Counted from the stretch's first letter, positions 56,495 through 60,046 are shown. The stretch is DNA of 64,000 bases from an uncultured Candidatus Saccharibacteria bacterium (GCA_964607415.1 CAZSKK010000001.1:4190-68189), one strand, 5' to 3'. Numbers and translations are program-made. Notes: generated by a model not told the origin, from the sequence alone.

Positions 56495-56908
56495 TTAAAG
56501 TGTTGCTATGAACTGTTTCACTTCTTGTGGTAATTTCTCAAAGCTTTCTTTATGGTGCAGCTCTAATATCTCATCGTAATTAAAATATCTAGCATCTACT
56601 AAATCATCTCCTGCCGTAGGTTCATCGTTACTAGTACATAAGAAGACAGTACCGTGACTTTTTGAATCTCCAACTACAAGTTCATATTCGCTAAGCTTCC
56701 TAATTATAGTTAGAGCCATATTAAGCTCTTCCTTCATTTCTCTTATTAGAGTATCTTCAATTAATTCATCGCCATCAGCTTTTCCACCTGGAAAATGCCA
56801 AGCATCATTTAAAAAATGTCCAGGTCTATTTCCCTTTTTTCCCATTAATACTTTCTTATCTTTTACTATAATAGCAATCACTCCTCTTCTTATATATTCA
56901 CTTGCCAT
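56495..56908 (-). CDS. NUDIX hydrolase.
   Basis: Nudix box GGKADGDELIEDTLIREMKEELNM. Confidence 0.8.
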   Translation of the reverse strand: MASEYIRRGVIAIIVKDKKVLMGKKGNRPGHFLNDAWHFPGGKADGDELIEDTLIREMKEELNMALTIIRKLSEYELVVGDSKSHGTVFLCTSNDEPTAGDDLVDARYFNYDEILELHHKESFEKLPQEVKQFIATL

Positions 56909-56918
56909 AATAATATTA

Positions 56919-57305
56919 TTAAATATATTTAATTAATTCTTTTGGACTTAAAGCATATCCATCAAACAATACATCTCTACTAACTTCTTGATCTTTCATT
57001 AAAGCATAGATTGGTTTCTTCATTGCATAAGCATATGCAAGTTCCATAGTTACACTATTTCCACAATAGCCTTCTTTATTATAAATGAAGACTACATCAG
57101 CTCTTTCAATTAAGTCGAAATATTCTATAGTAAGACCTTTATATAACTTTCTCAAAGCAGCTTCAGATAGTTTGTCCCAATCATCTGTTCTAAATCCAAG
57201 TTTTGGATAGATTACCCTAAATCCAGCATCTTCAAGTTCTTTAGCAAAGTTTTCAATTTCCTCACCTGCTTTTTTAATTGATCCACTAATTACTATAGTT
57301 TTCAT
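56919..57305 (-). CDS. Nucleoside 2-deoxyribosyltransferase-like (NDT/SLOG superfamily) protein.
   Basis: MKTIVISGS...ADVVFIY...GNSVTMELAYAYAMKKPIYAL: Rossmann-like, with the conserved Glu in the G-x-x-x-E-hG-hA motif. Confidence 0.6.
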   Translation of the reverse strand: MKTIVISGSIKKAGEEIENFAKELEDAGFRVIYPKLGFRTDDWDKLSEAALRKLYKGLTIEYFDLIERADVVFIYNKEGYCGNSVTMELAYAYAMKKPIYALMKDQEVSRDVLFDGYALSPKELIKYI

Positions 57306-57311
57306 AATATA

Positions 57312-58232
57312 TTAATTAAAAATATCCCAATCAAAATCTCTTAGAAACTCTTGATGTAATCTAATTCTTCTTGTACTAAATTCATTTAATTCTTCAGAAT
57401 AATATGCAAGATATTCAATAACTCTTGATAACCAGTACAAAGTGTCCAATTTCTTTTCTGCTTTAGTATAATTCATTAATTTGTAATATTCATGAATAGC
57501 TTTATCTCCTAAATTAAAGTGCCAGATATACATTCTTATTCTTGCGAAATCATAGATCGGGTCTCCGTACATTGCTTCACCCCAATCTATTATTGCCGCT
57601 AATTCATCAGTTTCAGAATTCACGAATAGATTCCTTTGGTTAAAGTCAGAATTCAATAGAGAATAGTTTGAATCTATAAATTTATTCTTTGAAATTACTT
57701 CAATAATTTTGTCTATAGAGTCTAAAATTAATTGCTTATCTAATCCCTCTCGCTTAGATATTTTAACCCAATCTAAATTAGAATTATCACCATTGAAAAA
57801 AGAGAGTAAGAAATCTTTCCATAAATTATATTTTTGATGCGAGTTTAGGTATCCTGCTTTATCAGATTTAACTCTATGTAGTTTCTCCAGATTTTCCACC
57901 ATTGAAGGTATATATTTGCTCATTTCCATGCCTTCAATAGTTTCTAATAATGGAGCTGAAATCTTTTCTAAAATTACAATAGATTTTCCTTCAAAGGTAA
58001 AGCTATCAATGAGTTTCGGTACTGCTAGGTCAACATTTGATTGTTGAAGTATTCTTAAAACGTTAGCATCATTATTATTCTCTTCGCTTTGTTTAATTGC
58101 ATATTCATTGCTATTTTCATCCTTTAAAAAAACTACAGAGCTACCCATTCCTTGTGGTGGAATAGTAGAATCAACAATTATAATATTTAATCTCTTTTGT
58201 ATTTCCTCAATTAGAGCATTCATATATTCCAT
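57312..58232 (-). CDS. APH/choline-kinase family phosphotransferase.
   Basis: LLNSDFNQRNLFV (catalytic loop) and IIDWGEAMYGDPIYDFARI. Confidence 0.7.
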   Translation of the reverse strand: MEYMNALIEEIQKRLNIIIVDSTIPPQGMGSSVVFLKDENSNEYAIKQSEENNNDANVLRILQQSNVDLAVPKLIDSFTFEGKSIVILEKISAPLLETIEGMEMSKYIPSMVENLEKLHRVKSDKAGYLNSHQKYNLWKDFLLSFFNGDNSNLDWVKISKREGLDKQLILDSIDKIIEVISKNKFIDSNYSLLNSDFNQRNLFVNSETDELAAIIDWGEAMYGDPIYDFARIRMYIWHFNLGDKAIHEYYKLMNYTKAEKKLDTLYWLSRVIEYLAYYSEELNEFSTRRIRLHQEFLRDFDWDIFN

Positions 58233-58746
58233 TCACTAAAATGGTTAATTTTTTCTTTAGTTCTCTTTTGATTATATCTCTAGTTCCAGTCCAGCTTAAT
58301 TCTTGATCAATAATATCTATTGGAACAAATTTTCTAAATTGCTGTAACCCGCCTGGATCTTTTATAAATTTATCAATCTTTTTTACCCTTGAGATAAATC
58401 TAAGCTGAGTAGAATCATAAATTTCTTTTCCATCTTTTATTTCATAAGCAATTACATAGAAGAATGGGATAATATATCCCTCATCAATAGTTATTGCAGT
58501 TTCTTCATAAACTTCTCGAATCAATGTTTGTTCGGGAGTCTCACCTTTTTCTCTTGTTCCACCGGGTAATCCCCACCAAGAGCCATCTGCGCTTACTAAT
58601 AGTATTTCATTCTTTTCATTAAGGATTACTCCTAAGCTCTGAGTAGGATCAGTTTCTATAATAGCAAAATCGTTATCAAAGTATTCCTTAAAAAGGATTT
58701 CTTTGTTACCGATTTTAAATTTTGTCTCATTAGTAGGCATCTTCAT
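58207..58746 (-). CDS. NUDIX hydrolase.
   Basis: Nudix box GGTREKGETPEQTLIREVYEETAI. Confidence 0.8.
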   Translation of the reverse strand: MKMPTNETKFKIGNKEILFKEYFDNDFAIIETDPTQSLGVILNEKNEILLVSADGSWWGLPGGTREKGETPEQTLIREVYEETAITIDEGYIIPFFYVIAYEIKDGKEIYDSTQLRFISRVKKIDKFIKDPGGLQQFRKFVPIDIIDQELSWTGTRDIIKRELKKKLTILVNGIYECSN

Positions 58747-58750
58747 GACA

Positions 58751-59317
58751 TTATCTTCTTTTTTCTGTATATAAAGTTTTCCACCAATCAGCAGGATTAG
58801 TTTCTAATATTTGCAAGAATAAATCTTTGGCTGTTTGGCAATAAAGATCATCTGGGCTTTTTCTTTTAATCCATTTTTCCGCTTCTTTATTACCTCTCAT
58901 TATATATTCTTTTACTAATAAATACTGGTCTAATTTATCTGCATCCTTAGCGATTTTAGATTCAACACTTTCTCTTTCTGCATATTCAGACATTGTTTTA
59001 AATAAGGAGTTATCTTCTGTAATATCTTTAAGCTGATCGTTAAGTATCTCATTTTCAAAGACTTTAACATACCTTTTGTGTACCCAAGTTTGATCTCCTG
59101 ATCTTGATTCTCCTACATCATGAAAGACACACATTGTTAAAACCTTCTCAATATTTGCATTTTCAGATTTAGCAAGAAAATATCCAATTACTGAAACTCT
59201 ATGTGAGTGAGAAGAAATATTATCAGATAAATCATCCGTTAAAAAAGATTGTCTGTGTGCACGAGCAATTTTTTTGAGTGAACCTACCTCAAAAAGAAAA
59301 CCTACTATTTTCTTCAT
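58751..59317 (-). CDS. HD-domain phosphohydrolase, YfbR-like 5'-deoxynucleotidase.
   Basis: SSHSHRVSVIGYFLA...VFHDVGESRSGD...KDADKLDQYL parallels YfbR SEHSLQVAMVAHALA...YHDASEVLTGD...KQADALCAYL. Confidence 0.75.
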   Translation of the reverse strand: MKKIVGFLFEVGSLKKIARAHRQSFLTDDLSDNISSHSHRVSVIGYFLAKSENANIEKVLTMCVFHDVGESRSGDQTWVHKRYVKVFENEILNDQLKDITEDNSLFKTMSEYAERESVESKIAKDADKLDQYLLVKEYIMRGNKEAEKWIKRKSPDDLYCQTAKDLFLQILETNPADWWKTLYTEKRR

Positions 59318-59335
59318 AGTAATTTTTGATAATAA

Positions 59336-60046
59336 TTAATATCCCTCCTCATTAGTATGATATTCTTTCACTACTAATGTTCTAGGTTCTCTTCTTTCTT
59401 CAATTTTTAATCCATTTAATATTTCAGATTTATCAATCTTGTCGAACTCCTTTTTAGTAATCCAGAAGTTTTCCTGATAGGGTAGTTTTTCAATAAATAC
59501 TCCTTCAAAATCTTTAACAAAAAATTCATAGAAGATTACATCTTGTAAAATCTCTCCGTTATTATTTTTTCTTAGAATATGAGCTATTTTATCAAGTACA
59601 AATGTTTTCGCAGTTAGTCCAGTTTCTTCAAATAACTCTCTTCTTGCAGCTTCTTCGAAATCTTCACCGAATCGTATCTTTCCTGTAAGTTCTGCAATCT
59701 TTCCATAAAAAGGATGTTTTAATCTTCTAGTTAATAAAAATTCTAGTTCACCATTTGAATCTTCTCTAATACCGTAAATAAGAATTGAAGTTTTAGGTTG
59801 CCTTTCAATATCTTTAACAATATCATCCATTCGATTTGTATAATCTTTACCAAACTCTGTAAGGAGATAATATTCTTTCTCCTTCTTAACAAGACTATAA
59901 GAGATTAATCTTTTTAAATGATAATTCATGTGTACACTCTCTAATTTTTCAATCAAAAGTTGATTAAATTTAAGCTTTGGAGATAAGCTTAATTTCTTAA
60001 GTATTTCATTTTGTAAGTAGTGAAGTTGTATGTTTGATTGATTCAT
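59336..60046 (-). CDS. Winged-helix DNA-binding domain fused to a NUDIX hydrolase domain (putative Nudix-related regulator, with the domains in reverse order relative to NrtR).
   Basis: N-terminal 70 aa is wHTH-like (LQNEILKKLSLSPKLKFNQL...HLKRLISYSLV). The C-terminal Nudix box is GKIRFGEDFEEAARRELFEETGL. It is the first gene of a six-gene minus-strand operon. Confidence 0.7.
   Translation of the reverse strand: MNQSNIQLHYLQNEILKKLSLSPKLKFNQLLIEKLESVHMNYHLKRLISYSLVKKEKEYYLLTEFGKDYTNRMDDIVKDIERQPKTSILIYGIREDSNGELEFLLTRRLKHPFYGKIAELTGKIRFGEDFEEAARRELFEETGLTAKTFVLDKIAHILRKNNNGEILQDVIFYEFFVKDFEGVFIEKLPYQENFWITKKEFDKIDKSEILNGLKIEERREPRTLVVKEYHTNEEGY

What the first reader, a model, noticed from the sequence alone, without database searches (positions are those of the whole stretch)
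56495..60046. Six-gene minus-strand operon made only of nucleotide-processing enzymes: wHTH-NUDIX, YfbR-like HD, NUDIX, APH-like kinase, NDT, NUDIX
Stop-to-start gaps between the six genes run from -26 (overlap) to +18 nt, so they form a single transcription unit. The products are: a NUDIX hydrolase with an N-terminal winged-helix (likely an autoregulator); a YfbR-type 5'-deoxynucleotidase (dNMP to deoxynucleoside); a second NUDIX; an aminoglycoside/choline-kinase-fold phosphotransferase; a nucleoside 2-deoxyribosyltransferase-like protein; and a third NUDIX. Together they spell a coherent but, to my knowledge, undescribed route: NUDIX converts (d)NTP or a modified dNTP to dNMP, the HD enzyme converts that to a deoxynucleoside, NDT exchanges the base, and the kinase re-phosphorylates. 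That would be a deoxynucleotide sanitation/base-swap salvage module. Alternatively it could be a nucleotide-depleting or signal-degrading conflict system of the nucleotide-centric kind (NUDIX, HD, NDT/SLOG and 2H folds recur in such systems). Three NUDIX paralogues in one operon is unusual.
Basis: partly seen in the sequence, partly recalled or inferred. Interest (0 to 1): 0.78.

Follow-up and report, generated by a model that had tools for sequence, protein, structure and literature searches.

The report
Reshuffled nucleotide-cleanup operon in a CPR bacterium
Six tightly packed genes in a tiny-genome (Patescibacteria) bacterium all encode enzymes that break down or re-phosphorylate nucleotides. 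Relatives keep swapping genes in and out of this cluster, so it looks like a flexible nucleotide "house-cleaning" toolbox rather than one fixed new pathway.

Summary
Six minus-strand ORFs lie at exactly the stated coordinates, with gaps of 18, 4, -26, 6 and 10 nt. This is the longest tight gene run in the window. All six domain calls hold: wHTH-NUDIX, HD_3/YfbR-like, NUDIX, APH-fold kinase, NDT/DNPH1-fold protein, NUDIX. Catalytic motifs are intact, including the NDT-like Glu88.

The proposed single route (NUDIX, then HD, then NDT base swap, then kinase) is not supported.
- Of 27 genome loci carrying the kinase orthologue, only one shares part of the cluster.
- The wHTH-NUDIX family is CPR-wide but had no HD neighbour in 4 of 4 distant loci.
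- In close relatives, genes drop out, are replaced (Ppx/GppA instead of the kinase), or are joined by Ham1/ITPase, HIT, 2H, NTPase, GNAT and nucleotidyltransferase genes.

Only one pairing is deep. An NDT-like gene is followed directly by a NUDIX gene in 11 of 45 non-redundant metagenomic lineages, against a background of 1 NUDIX in 215 ORFs.

Best reading: a plastic, co-transcribed array of nucleotide-pool sanitation and salvage hydrolases in a Patescibacteria genome. No match to a known defence system was found. Substrates remain unknown. Interest is moderate.

The parts
59336..60046 (-). g1: winged-helix (N-terminal, about residues 1-85) fused to a NUDIX hydrolase (C-terminal); first gene of the array
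   Evidence: ORF. NUDIX 45 bits. The NUDIX box GKIRFGEDFEEAARRELFEE is intact. Family-wide wHTH hits: DUF7347 in 16/16 members, HTH_45 in 14/16. 341 homologues across CPR phyla.
58751..59317 (-). g2: HD_3 / YfbR-HDDC2-type HD phosphohydrolase (putative 5'-nucleotidase)
   Evidence: HD_3 73.9 bits and YfbR-like 39.7 bits. PDB relatives are AF1432, PF0395, HDDC2 and YfbR. The H...HDxxE...D motifs are visible in the sequence.
58207..58746 (-). g3: NUDIX hydrolase; its 3' end overlaps the kinase start by 26 nt
   Evidence: NUDIX 54.7 bits. NUDIX box GTREKGETPEQTLIREVYEE. Nearest PDB relatives are generic MutT and Ap4A hydrolases.
57312..58232 (-). g4: APH-fold small-molecule kinase of unknown substrate
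   Evidence: APH 66.4 bits. Catalytic K47, D196, N201 and D216 are invariant in 17 homologues. AlphaFold model pLDDT 92.5. Best structural matches are APH(4)-Ia (TM 0.72, 14% identity) and a putative fructosamine-3-kinase.
56919..57305 (-). g5: NDT/DNPH1-fold protein (nucleoside 2-deoxyribosyltransferase-like)
56495..56908 (-). g6: NUDIX hydrolase directly downstream of g5; this pairing recurs in distant relatives
   Evidence: NUDIX 56.9 bits. NUDIX box GKADGDELIEDTLIREMKEE. An NDT-like gene followed by a NUDIX gene is found in 11/45 de-duplicated metagenomic lineages.
61029..61586 (-). 2H (LigT-like) phosphoesterase. It is separated from the array here by the plus-strand ROK gene, but it lies inside the array in relatives.
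   Evidence: 2_5_RNA_ligase2 E 2.8e-5. Its orthologue lies between array genes in L118, L004, L033 and L037.
60041..60076 (-). Perfect 9-nt inverted repeat, ATTCATAGT-N18-ACTATGAAT, covering the g1 start codon. It may be an operator or a 5'-UTR hairpin; this is speculative.
   Evidence: Found. Partly kept in L118 and not in L033.

Best explanation
The six genes are a co-transcribed, lineage-specific and rapidly reshuffled array of nucleotide 'house-cleaning' and catabolic-salvage enzymes. They sit on the chromosome of a Patescibacteria (CPR) bacterium. They are not a fixed six-step pathway.

Inferred mechanism:
- Three unrelated NUDIX hydrolases each remove pyrophosphate, or a nucleotide moiety, from a different substrate. 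That substrate is probably a non-canonical or surplus (d)NTP or an NDP-X compound. The products are (d)NMPs.
- The (d)NMPs are then disposed of by two parallel exits. The HD_3/YfbR-type enzyme dephosphorylates them to nucleosides. The NDT/DNPH1-fold enzyme breaks or exchanges the N-glycosidic bond, most simply giving free base plus (deoxy)ribose 5-phosphate.
- The APH-fold kinase phosphorylates an unknown small molecule. It is a paralogue of a kinase found throughout CPR that normally lives elsewhere in the genome.

Shown here: gene structure, folds, intact catalytic motifs, tight packing, modular gain and loss in relatives, and the deep NDT-like + NUDIX pairing.
Inferred: all substrates, the direction of flux, and co-transcription.
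For: Packing: this is the longest tight same-strand run in the window.

All six families are confirmed with catalytic residues intact.

The equivalent locus in relatives lies next to the same histidine kinase / response regulator pair. It carries different mixes of the same kind of enzyme:
- L118: thymidylate kinase, RNase T, TK-like, g1, g2, 2H, NUDIX, Ham1/ITPase, NUDIX, APH, NDT, NUDIX, GNAT.
- L004: NUDIX, HIT, 2H, g3, NUDIX, APH, g6::HIT fusion, Pol-beta NTase, GNAT.
- L037: g6-like NUDIX::GNAT fusion, 2H, NDT, Ppx/GppA, NUDIX.
- L033: CMP kinase, NTPase_1, NTPase_I-T, g1, g2, 2H, two unknowns, NDT.
- L035: APH, NTPase_1, NDT, NTase, GNAT, DeoC.

Ham1/ITPase, NTPase_I-T (YjjX type), NUDIX and HIT are classic house-cleaning families (established knowledge; for example PMC3899018 and PMC3765497, seen).

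NDT-like + NUDIX association: 348 metagenomic relatives were found. After de-duplication to 53 groups, a NUDIX gene lies directly downstream on the same strand within 60 nt in 11 of 45. A NUDIX gene lies within three genes in 23 of 53. The background is 1 NUDIX in 215 more distant ORFs, binomial P about 2e-4 even against a 7% background.

The host is CPR: homologues are named Saccharibacteria, Parcubacteria, Dojkabacteria and others. The contig is 585 kb.
Against: - No substrate is known for any of the six proteins. NCBIfam equivalog cut-offs are missed by a wide margin for all of them.
- The kinase has no obvious role in a degradative scheme.
- Variable gene content at a fixed locus is also typical of accessory or conflict islands.
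- Co-transcription is inferred from spacing only. The promoter/terminator scan was uninformative: 19 sites against 23.3 +/- 4.3 in shuffles.
- The neighbourhood surveys depend on motif-seeded locus retrieval and naive ORF calling.
- The NUDIX genes next to distant NDT-like genes are not clear orthologues of g6; they score only 12-27 bits.
Confidence: 0.5

Rival explanations
1. The six genes form one closed deoxynucleotide route: NUDIX converts dNTP to dNMP, HD converts dNMP to deoxynucleoside, NDT swaps the base, and the kinase re-phosphorylates the nucleoside.
For: All four enzyme classes are present with intact catalytic residues. Gene packing is tight. All six genes recur together in one other sampled lineage, L118.
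Against: - The six genes are not co-conserved. The kinase family occurs in 25 of 27 genome loci without HD or NDT.
- HD and g1 are absent from L004, L035 and L037. The kinase is absent from L033, L036 and L037, where Ppx/GppA takes its place. NDT is absent from L004.
- The kinase has an APH/FN3K-like fold, not a deoxynucleoside-kinase fold. Its nearest structure is a hygromycin kinase at 14% identity.
- g5 lacks the Tyr of the NDT/DNPH1 triad and differs at the Asp position (PMC10603095).
Confidence: 0.08
2. A nucleotide-centred conflict module. It would either be a defence system that depletes nucleotides or degrades signals, or a counter-measure against host or phage nucleotide signals.
For: - Gene content at a fixed locus turns over quickly between close relatives, and identities are mosaic.
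- The families involved (NUDIX, HD, 2H, NDT/TIR-like fold, CYTH, HIT) recur in such systems (knowledge from the comparative-genomics literature).
- g6 matches the PADLOC candidate PDC-S07 at 59.8 bits.
Against: - PDC-S07 is a bare NUDIX model. No other protein matched any of the 5027 PADLOC models.
- No sensor, effector or toxin component, no mobile-element genes and no integrase flank the array.
- Neighbours in relatives are ordinary salvage genes: thymidylate kinase, TK-like, CMP kinase, DeoC and ribonucleotide reductase.
- Only one weak viral-contig relative of g5 was found.
- g1 and g4 belong to families kept at about 50% identity across many CPR phyla, which suggests housekeeping roles.
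Confidence: 0.12
3. There is no shared function. Independent housekeeping genes from abundant CPR families simply lie side by side in a compact genome.
For: Each family is found alone in varied contexts elsewhere. NUDIX genes are very dense in this genome, at 5 per 64 kb.
Against: - Six of six neighbours share the nucleotide-phosphoester theme.
- This is the tightest run in the window.
- The same theme recurs in every rearranged version of the locus. It also recurs in a second array around a paralogous kinase carried by the same genome.
- The NDT-like + NUDIX adjacency is statistically enriched.
Confidence: 0.2
4. A small-molecule (antibiotic or xenobiotic) modification cluster. APH kinase, GNAT acetyltransferase and Pol-beta nucleotidyltransferase are the three classes of aminoglycoside-modifying enzyme, and the NUDIX and HD enzymes would play auxiliary roles.
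For: The best structural and sequence matches of g4 are aminoglycoside kinases. GNAT and Pol-beta NTase genes follow the kinase in L004, L035 and L118.
Against: - Identity to resistance kinases is only 13-20%. NCBIfam resistance models score 17-21 bits against cut-offs of 600-725.
- The window array itself has no GNAT or NTase gene.
- The kinase family is conserved across CPR phyla, unlike sporadic resistance genes.
Confidence: 0.07

Closest known systems
Mammalian nucleotide-pool sanitation axis: an NTP pyrophosphatase (DCTPP1 or a NUDIX enzyme) followed by DNPH1 (PMC10603095, PMC10483697)
   Same: The logic is two steps. A pyrophosphatase makes the (d)NMP, and an NDT-fold enzyme with a nucleophilic Glu then cleaves base from sugar phosphate. 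g5 matches DNPH1 structures and keeps the Glu. It is genetically paired with a NUDIX gene.
   Different: g5 has no equivalent of Tyr24 and differs at the Asp80 position, and identity is only 17%. The pairing here is an operon in bacteria. No activity has been measured.
Bacterial house-cleaning enzymes (MutT, RdgB/Ham1, YjjX, MazG, Maf, YfbR), as known from E. coli (knowledge; PMC3899018)
   Same: The enzyme families are the same: NUDIX and HD 5'-nucleotidase here, plus Ham1, NTPase_I-T and HIT in relatives.
   Different: In model bacteria these genes are scattered and present in single copies. Here they are concentrated in one array whose content varies and which carries several NUDIX families. 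None reaches an NCBIfam equivalog cut-off.
Nucleoside 2-deoxyribosyltransferases of lactobacilli, and the MilB/BlsM CMP N-glycosidases
   Different: The Pfam score is below the gathering threshold. There are no PDB sequence hits. The Tyr of the triad is absent. The genomic partners differ.
NrtR-type Nudix-related transcriptional regulators
   Same: A NUDIX domain is fused to a winged-helix domain.
   Different: The domain order is reversed: the wHTH is N-terminal here. The NUDIX box is fully intact rather than degenerate. The family sits in varied, unrelated contexts.
Nucleotide-centric conflict systems described by comparative genomics (NUDIX, HD, 2H, SLOG and TIR domains)
   Same: The domain repertoire overlaps, and the locus is variable.
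   Different: There is no sensor or effector architecture. There are no PADLOC system hits. The surroundings are housekeeping salvage genes.

Membership tests
NUDIX hydrolase superfamily (g1, g3, g6) | NUDIX box G-x5-E-x7-R-E-U-x-E-E-x-G-U, and a Pfam PF00293 score above the gathering cut-off | tested here: met
   Scores are 45, 54.7 and 56.9 bits against a cut-off of 21.1. The core G-x5-E-x7-RExxEE is present in all three. The final G is replaced in g3 (A) and g6 (N).
MutT / 8-oxo-dGTPase and other named NUDIX equivalogs | NCBIfam equivalog score above the curated cut-off | tested here: not met
   The best scores are 24-39 bits against cut-offs of 95-245.
HD_3 / YfbR / HDDC2 5'-nucleotidase family (g2) | Pfam HD_3 or YfbR-like score above cut-off, and the H...HD...D metal ligands | tested here: met
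   HD_3 73.9 bits (cut-off 22.5) and YfbR-like 39.7 bits (cut-off 25.9). HSHR, FHDVGE and DADKLD are present.
5'-deoxynucleotidase YfbR (equivalog) | NCBIfam NF003009 score at or above 122 bits | tested here: not met
   31.4 bits.
NDT / DNPH1 family (g5) | NDT fold | tested here: met
NDT / DNPH1 family (g5) | Pfam PF05014 gathering score | tested here: not met
   26.9 bits against 28.8.
NDT / DNPH1 family (g5) | Nucleophilic Glu (DNPH1 E104) | tested here: met
   E88 aligns to E104, although the hhalign match is weak (E 0.017). E88 is invariant in 63/63 family members.
NDT / DNPH1 family (g5) | General acid Asp (DNPH1 D80) | tested here: inconclusive
   The aligned position is Y62 in g5 and H in 57/63 relatives. 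The adjacent position 61 is D or E in 57/63.
NDT / DNPH1 family (g5) | Triad Tyr (DNPH1 Y24) | tested here: not met
   By register with the GS motif, the position is V5, and it is V in 52/63 relatives (triad defined in PMC10603095).
NDT / DNPH1 family (g5) | Measured transferase or N-hydrolase activity | not testable with these tools
   This needs an enzyme assay.
APH / protein-kinase-like phosphotransferases (g4) | Pfam APH score above cut-off, plus the catalytic Lys, the HxDxxxxN loop and the metal-binding Asp | tested here: met
   66.4 bits against 23.2. K47, D196, N201 and D216 are invariant. The fold match has TM 0.72.
Named aminoglycoside, homoserine, choline or thiamine kinases | Orthology, judged by curated model cut-offs | tested here: not met
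   NCBIfam resistance models score 15-21 bits against cut-offs of 325-725. No homoserine or choline kinase model was hit.
Known anti-phage defence systems (PADLOC-DB) | Matches to the component proteins of a system | tested here: not met
   Only the single-gene candidate NUDIX model PDC-S07 matched. HD, APH, NDT, 2H, CYTH and NTase had no hits.
   All six occur together only in L118, and there four extra genes are interleaved. The set is partial or absent in the other 30+ informative loci.

The most novel reading that the evidence does not exclude
The deeply conserved NDT-like + NUDIX gene pair is an uncharacterised bacterial two-enzyme route. Here it is g5-g6, and in many uncultured lineages it occurs as NDT-NUDIX-NDT triplets. 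The route would destroy specific non-canonical (d)NTPs all the way to free base plus (deoxy)ribose 5-phosphate. That would make it a prokaryotic counterpart of the DCTPP1/DNPH1 sanitation axis. In nucleotide-scavenging CPR cells it might also feed sugar phosphate into central metabolism; DeoC and glycolysis genes follow the array in L035. On this reading the surrounding array is a combinatorial 'hygiene island' tuned to the modified nucleotides of each lineage's host.
Probability: 0.3. Interest if true: 0.6.

Novelty: new variant of a known kind. Interest (0 to 1): 0.4.

Why it matters
CPR/Patescibacteria cannot make nucleotides de novo and live off scavenged ones. How they keep that imported pool clean is poorly understood.

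This locus shows that at least one lineage concentrates many otherwise scattered house-cleaning enzymes into one reshuffled operon. It also points to a conserved NDT-like + NUDIX pair and a CPR-wide APH-like kinase as concrete, untested targets for biochemistry.

It does not reveal a new kind of system, and it does not support the specific base-swap cycle that was proposed.

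Tried and rejected
- Sequence searches of g5 against PDB, as a single sequence and as a profile, gave only noise. Fold comparison was needed.
- PADLOC gave no system-level hits.
- Rfam found only a tRNA in the window.
- The promoter/terminator consensus scan was no better than shuffles and did not define the transcription unit.
- Literature searches found nothing describing such an array. I searched for CPR NUDIX clusters, for NDT + HD + NUDIX neighbourhoods, for SLOG + NUDIX and for YtoQ.
- The AFDB fold library was unavailable.
- Kinase + NUDIX adjacency was considered as a deep association and rejected. Only 8 of 27 loci have a NUDIX gene within 4.5 kb, which is about what the NUDIX density of these genomes predicts.
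- g1 as an operon-specific autoregulator could not be tested. Its family occurs in unrelated contexts, and the inverted repeat over its start codon is only partly conserved.
- A viral origin was rejected. There is one weak viral relative of g5, and the flanks are chromosomal housekeeping genes.

Full report
**1. Observation**

- g1: 59336-60046
- g2: 58751-59317
- g3: 58207-58746
- g4: 57312-58232
- g5: 56919-57305
- g6: 56495-56908

Stop-to-start gaps are 18, 4, -26, 6 and 10 nt. With a naive non-overlapping gene set, the window has 72 genes and 84% coding density. The median same-strand gap is 66.5 nt, and only 16 of 40 same-strand gaps are 30 nt or less. The six-gene run is the longest tight run in the window; the next longest has three genes. 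The packing is therefore real and unusual for this genome, although co-transcription remains an inference. The consensus promoter/terminator scan was no better than shuffled sequence.

**2. Identity of the six products**

Pfam confirms NUDIX domains in g1, g3 and g6, HD_3/YfbR-like in g2 and APH in g4. It gives a just sub-threshold Nuc_deoxyrib_tr hit for g5 (26.9 bits against 28.8).

- **NUDIX proteins.** All three carry the catalytic core G-x5-E-x7-RExxEE. They resemble each other only around that box. They are three different NUDIX families, not recent duplicates.
- **g1 N-terminus.** In the window protein alone it is sub-threshold for winged-helix models. Across 16 diverse homologues, DUF7347 hits 16 of 16 and HTH_45 hits 14 of 16, with best E about 5e-6. 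The wHTH call is therefore accepted.
- **g2.** It has the H...HDxxE...D signature. Its nearest solved relatives are AF1432, PF0395, HDDC2 and YfbR.
- **g4.** It keeps the kinase Lys, the HxDxxxxN loop and the metal-binding Asp, all invariant in 17 homologues. Its AlphaFold model (pLDDT 92.5) is closest to APH(4)-Ia (TM 0.72, 14% identity), followed by a putative fructosamine-3-kinase. It is a generic small-molecule kinase. It is not an orthologue of any named kinase.

The catalytic triad of DNPH1 is Y24, D80 and E104 (PMC10603095). A weak profile alignment puts g5 E88 on E104 and g5 Y62 on D80. In 63 distinct family members:
- E88 is invariant.
- Position 61 is D or E in 57.
- Position 62 is H in 57, but Y in g5's own clade.
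- The Tyr position is Val.
- The N-terminal C/S-G-S-(I)-[RK]-[RK] loop resembles the DNPH1/MilB GS-x-R loop.

The chemistry, transfer versus hydrolysis and nucleoside versus nucleotide, remains open.

None of the six proteins reaches any NCBIfam equivalog cut-off. No specific substrate can be assigned.

**3. Host and surroundings**

The exact kinase sequence occurs on Logan and NCBI contigs of up to 585 kb. Homologues of g1 and g4 carry source names such as Saccharibacteria, Parcubacteria, Dojkabacteria, Roizmanbacteria, Woesebacteria and WWE3. With 32% GC, this is a Patescibacteria/CPR chromosome.

The flanks continue the nucleotide theme:
- a 2H phosphoesterase and a PolyA_pol-type nucleotidyltransferase upstream, separated from the array by a plus-strand ROK kinase;
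- a histidine kinase / response regulator pair downstream;
- then a CYTH protein, another NUDIX, and a second APH-like kinase (31% identical to g4);
- a fifth NUDIX at 43.5 kb.

Beyond the window lie a ribonucleotide reductase, an AAA_18 kinase and another CYTH. No mobile-element genes are present.

**4. Co-conservation test, anchored on the kinase**

A scan of one genome per species returned 29 loci encoding kinase relatives at 39-78% identity. ORFs in these loci were compared with the window proteins and clustered among themselves. In 25 of 27 informative loci the kinase has no HD, NDT or array-type neighbours. Recurrent neighbours are a short-chain dehydrogenase (5 loci) and a CYTH protein (3 loci). 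A NUDIX gene lies within 4.5 kb in 8 of 27 loci, about what NUDIX density alone predicts. Only L004 (78% identity) shares part of the array.

**5. Anchored on g1**

The wHTH-NUDIX family has more than 340 members across CPR phyla at 44-60% identity. In four distant genomes it is not followed by an HD gene, and its neighbours are unrelated.

**6. Anchored on g5**

Close relatives show a mosaic. Percentages are identity to the window protein.

| Locus | Gene order |
|---|---|
| L118 | thymidylate kinase, RNase T, TK-like, g1 (94%), g2 (96%), 2H, g3 (79%), Ham1/ITPase, NUDIX, g4 (82%), g5 (95%), g6 (72%), GNAT, HK, RR |
| L004 | 5'-3' exonuclease, NUDIX, HIT, 2H, g3 (80%), NUDIX, g4 (78%), g6::HIT fusion (57%), Pol-beta NTase, GNAT, HK, RR |
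| L037 | g6-like NUDIX::GNAT fusion (61%), 2H, g5 (88%), Ppx/GppA, NUDIX, HK, RR |
| L033 | CMP kinase, unknown, NTPase_1, unknown, NTPase_I-T, g1 (76%), g2 (87%), 2H, two unknowns, g5 (89%) |
| L035 | unknown, g4 (73%), NTPase_1, g5 (67%), NTase, GNAT, DeoC, LDH, PFK, PGI |
| L036 | HK, g2 (69%), unknown, g5 (66%) |

Every one of the six genes is dispensable in some relative. The kinase slot can be filled by a Ppx/GppA phosphatase. What gets inserted are further small nucleotide hydrolases.

A paralogous kinase, P0042 (53% identical to g4), is recorded on a contig of the same 584,792-bp length as the window's own proteins. It sits in yet another such array: NTPase_I-T, NUDIX, GNAT, APH, 2H.

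**7. The one deep association**

The metagenome scan found 348 relatives of g5, of which 80 loci were retrieved at 41-88% identity. After de-duplicating the anchors at 90% identity, 53 groups remained:
- A NUDIX gene lies immediately downstream, on the same strand and within 60 nt, in 11 of the 45 groups that have a downstream gene.
- A NUDIX gene lies within three genes in 23 of 53.
- Only 1 of 215 ORFs further away belongs to the NUDIX cluster. The binomial P is about 2e-4, even against a generous 7% background.

NDT-NUDIX-NDT and NDT-NDT-NUDIX triplets recur. The partner NUDIX proteins are not clear orthologues of g6, scoring only 12-27 bits. The link is therefore at family level.

Caveats: locus retrieval is seeded by conserved peptide motifs, ORF calling is naive, and the NUDIX class was defined by single-linkage BLAST.

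**8. Interpretation**

The evidence fits a co-transcribed but modular array of nucleotide-pool sanitation and catabolic-salvage enzymes.
- Several NUDIX hydrolases, joined in relatives by Ham1/ITPase, YjjX-type NTPase and HIT, convert unwanted NTPs or NDP-X compounds to NMPs.
- An HD_3 5'-nucleotidase and an NDT/DNPH1-fold enzyme provide two exits: nucleoside, or base plus sugar phosphate.

This matches the known logic of house-cleaning enzymes (PMC3899018, PMC3765497) and of the mammalian pyrophosphatase-DNPH1 axis (PMC10603095, PMC10483697). It also makes biological sense for organisms that depend on scavenged nucleotides; that last point is inference.

The closed base-swap cycle is disfavoured for three reasons: the lack of co-conservation, the non-nucleoside-kinase nature of g4, and the atypical active site of g5.

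The defence reading is not excluded, because the locus is variable and the folds are shared with conflict systems. It lacks positive evidence, however. PADLOC gives only a generic NUDIX hit. There are no sensor or effector components and no mobile context. The neighbours are salvage genes.

**9. Novelty**

All component families are known, and I found no description of such arrays in CPR. I rate it a new variant of a known kind, of moderate interest. The most useful leads are the conserved NDT-like + NUDIX pair and the CPR-wide APH-like kinase, both without known substrates.

Noticed in passing
window 56149-56494 (minus strand), between g6 and the histidine-kinase gene: The 346-nt spacer is conserved in L118 and L004. 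It contains a promoter-like TGTACA-N18-TGATATAAT (56389-56360) and a 22-codon ORF (MKKNKQRTFTVLEIPVNTFRLD). It also has a 10-bp hairpin plus T-run (56180-56149) that ends right at the kinase ATG. The stem differs between loci in a pair-preserving way (GGATCTCC/GAGATCC versus GGGTCTCC/GGAGACCC). There is no Rfam match. It may be a leader or attenuator of the two-component system, and it marks the 3' limit of the array.
   Followed up: partly
window 60041-60076: A perfect 9-nt inverted repeat, ATTCATAGT-N18-ACTATGAAT, covers the g1 start codon. It is partly kept in L118 and not in L033. It could be an operator for the wHTH protein or a start-codon-sequestering hairpin.
   Followed up: partly
window 51198-52659 and 53425-53967: A second APH-like kinase (31% identical to g4, with a Fructosamin_kin hit) sits back to back with another NUDIX gene, and a CYTH protein lies nearby. 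A MazF-like toxin gene (50866-51168) lies next to the kinase, with no antitoxin identified.
   Followed up: partly
L124 (contig carrying P0042; records P0042 on a contig of the same 584,792-bp length as the window's proteins): A third APH paralogue (53% identical to g4) is closer to the kinases of other CPR phyla than g4 is. It lies in another array: NUDIX, CTP synthase fragment, GreA, NTPase_I-T, NUDIX, GNAT, APH, 2H.
   Followed up: partly
L118 compared with window 56495-60046: Identities are mosaic. g1, g2 and g5 are 94-96% identical, while g3, g4 and g6 are only 72-82% and the flanking HK/RR genes 86-91%. This suggests recombination or module exchange between related lineages.
   Followed up: no
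L033 5582-6004, L036 5588-6004, L035 2903-3340: A 138-145 aa protein family with no Pfam hit overlaps the start of the NDT-like gene (L033, L036) or of the kinase gene (L035). It is an uncharacterised recurrent partner.
   Followed up: no
L044, L048, L059, L093, L064, L080 (metagenomic loci): Tandem NDT-like paralogues flank or precede the NUDIX gene as NDT-NUDIX-NDT or NDT-NDT-NUDIX.
   Followed up: no
window 61029-63012: A 474-aa protein with a PolyA_pol/CCA-type nucleotidyltransferase head domain is followed after 1 nt by the 2H phosphoesterase. This resembles an RNA-end repair pair. The 2H stop codon abuts the convergent ROK gene with zero gap.
   Followed up: no
window 44746-45932: A SAM-dependent methyltransferase is followed by a DUF559 (Vsr-like endonuclease fold) protein.
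   Followed up: no
L117 (IMG/VR contig, 72.7 kb): This is the single viral-contig relative of the NDT-like protein (31% identity over 101 residues). Its neighbourhood was not examined.
   Followed up: no
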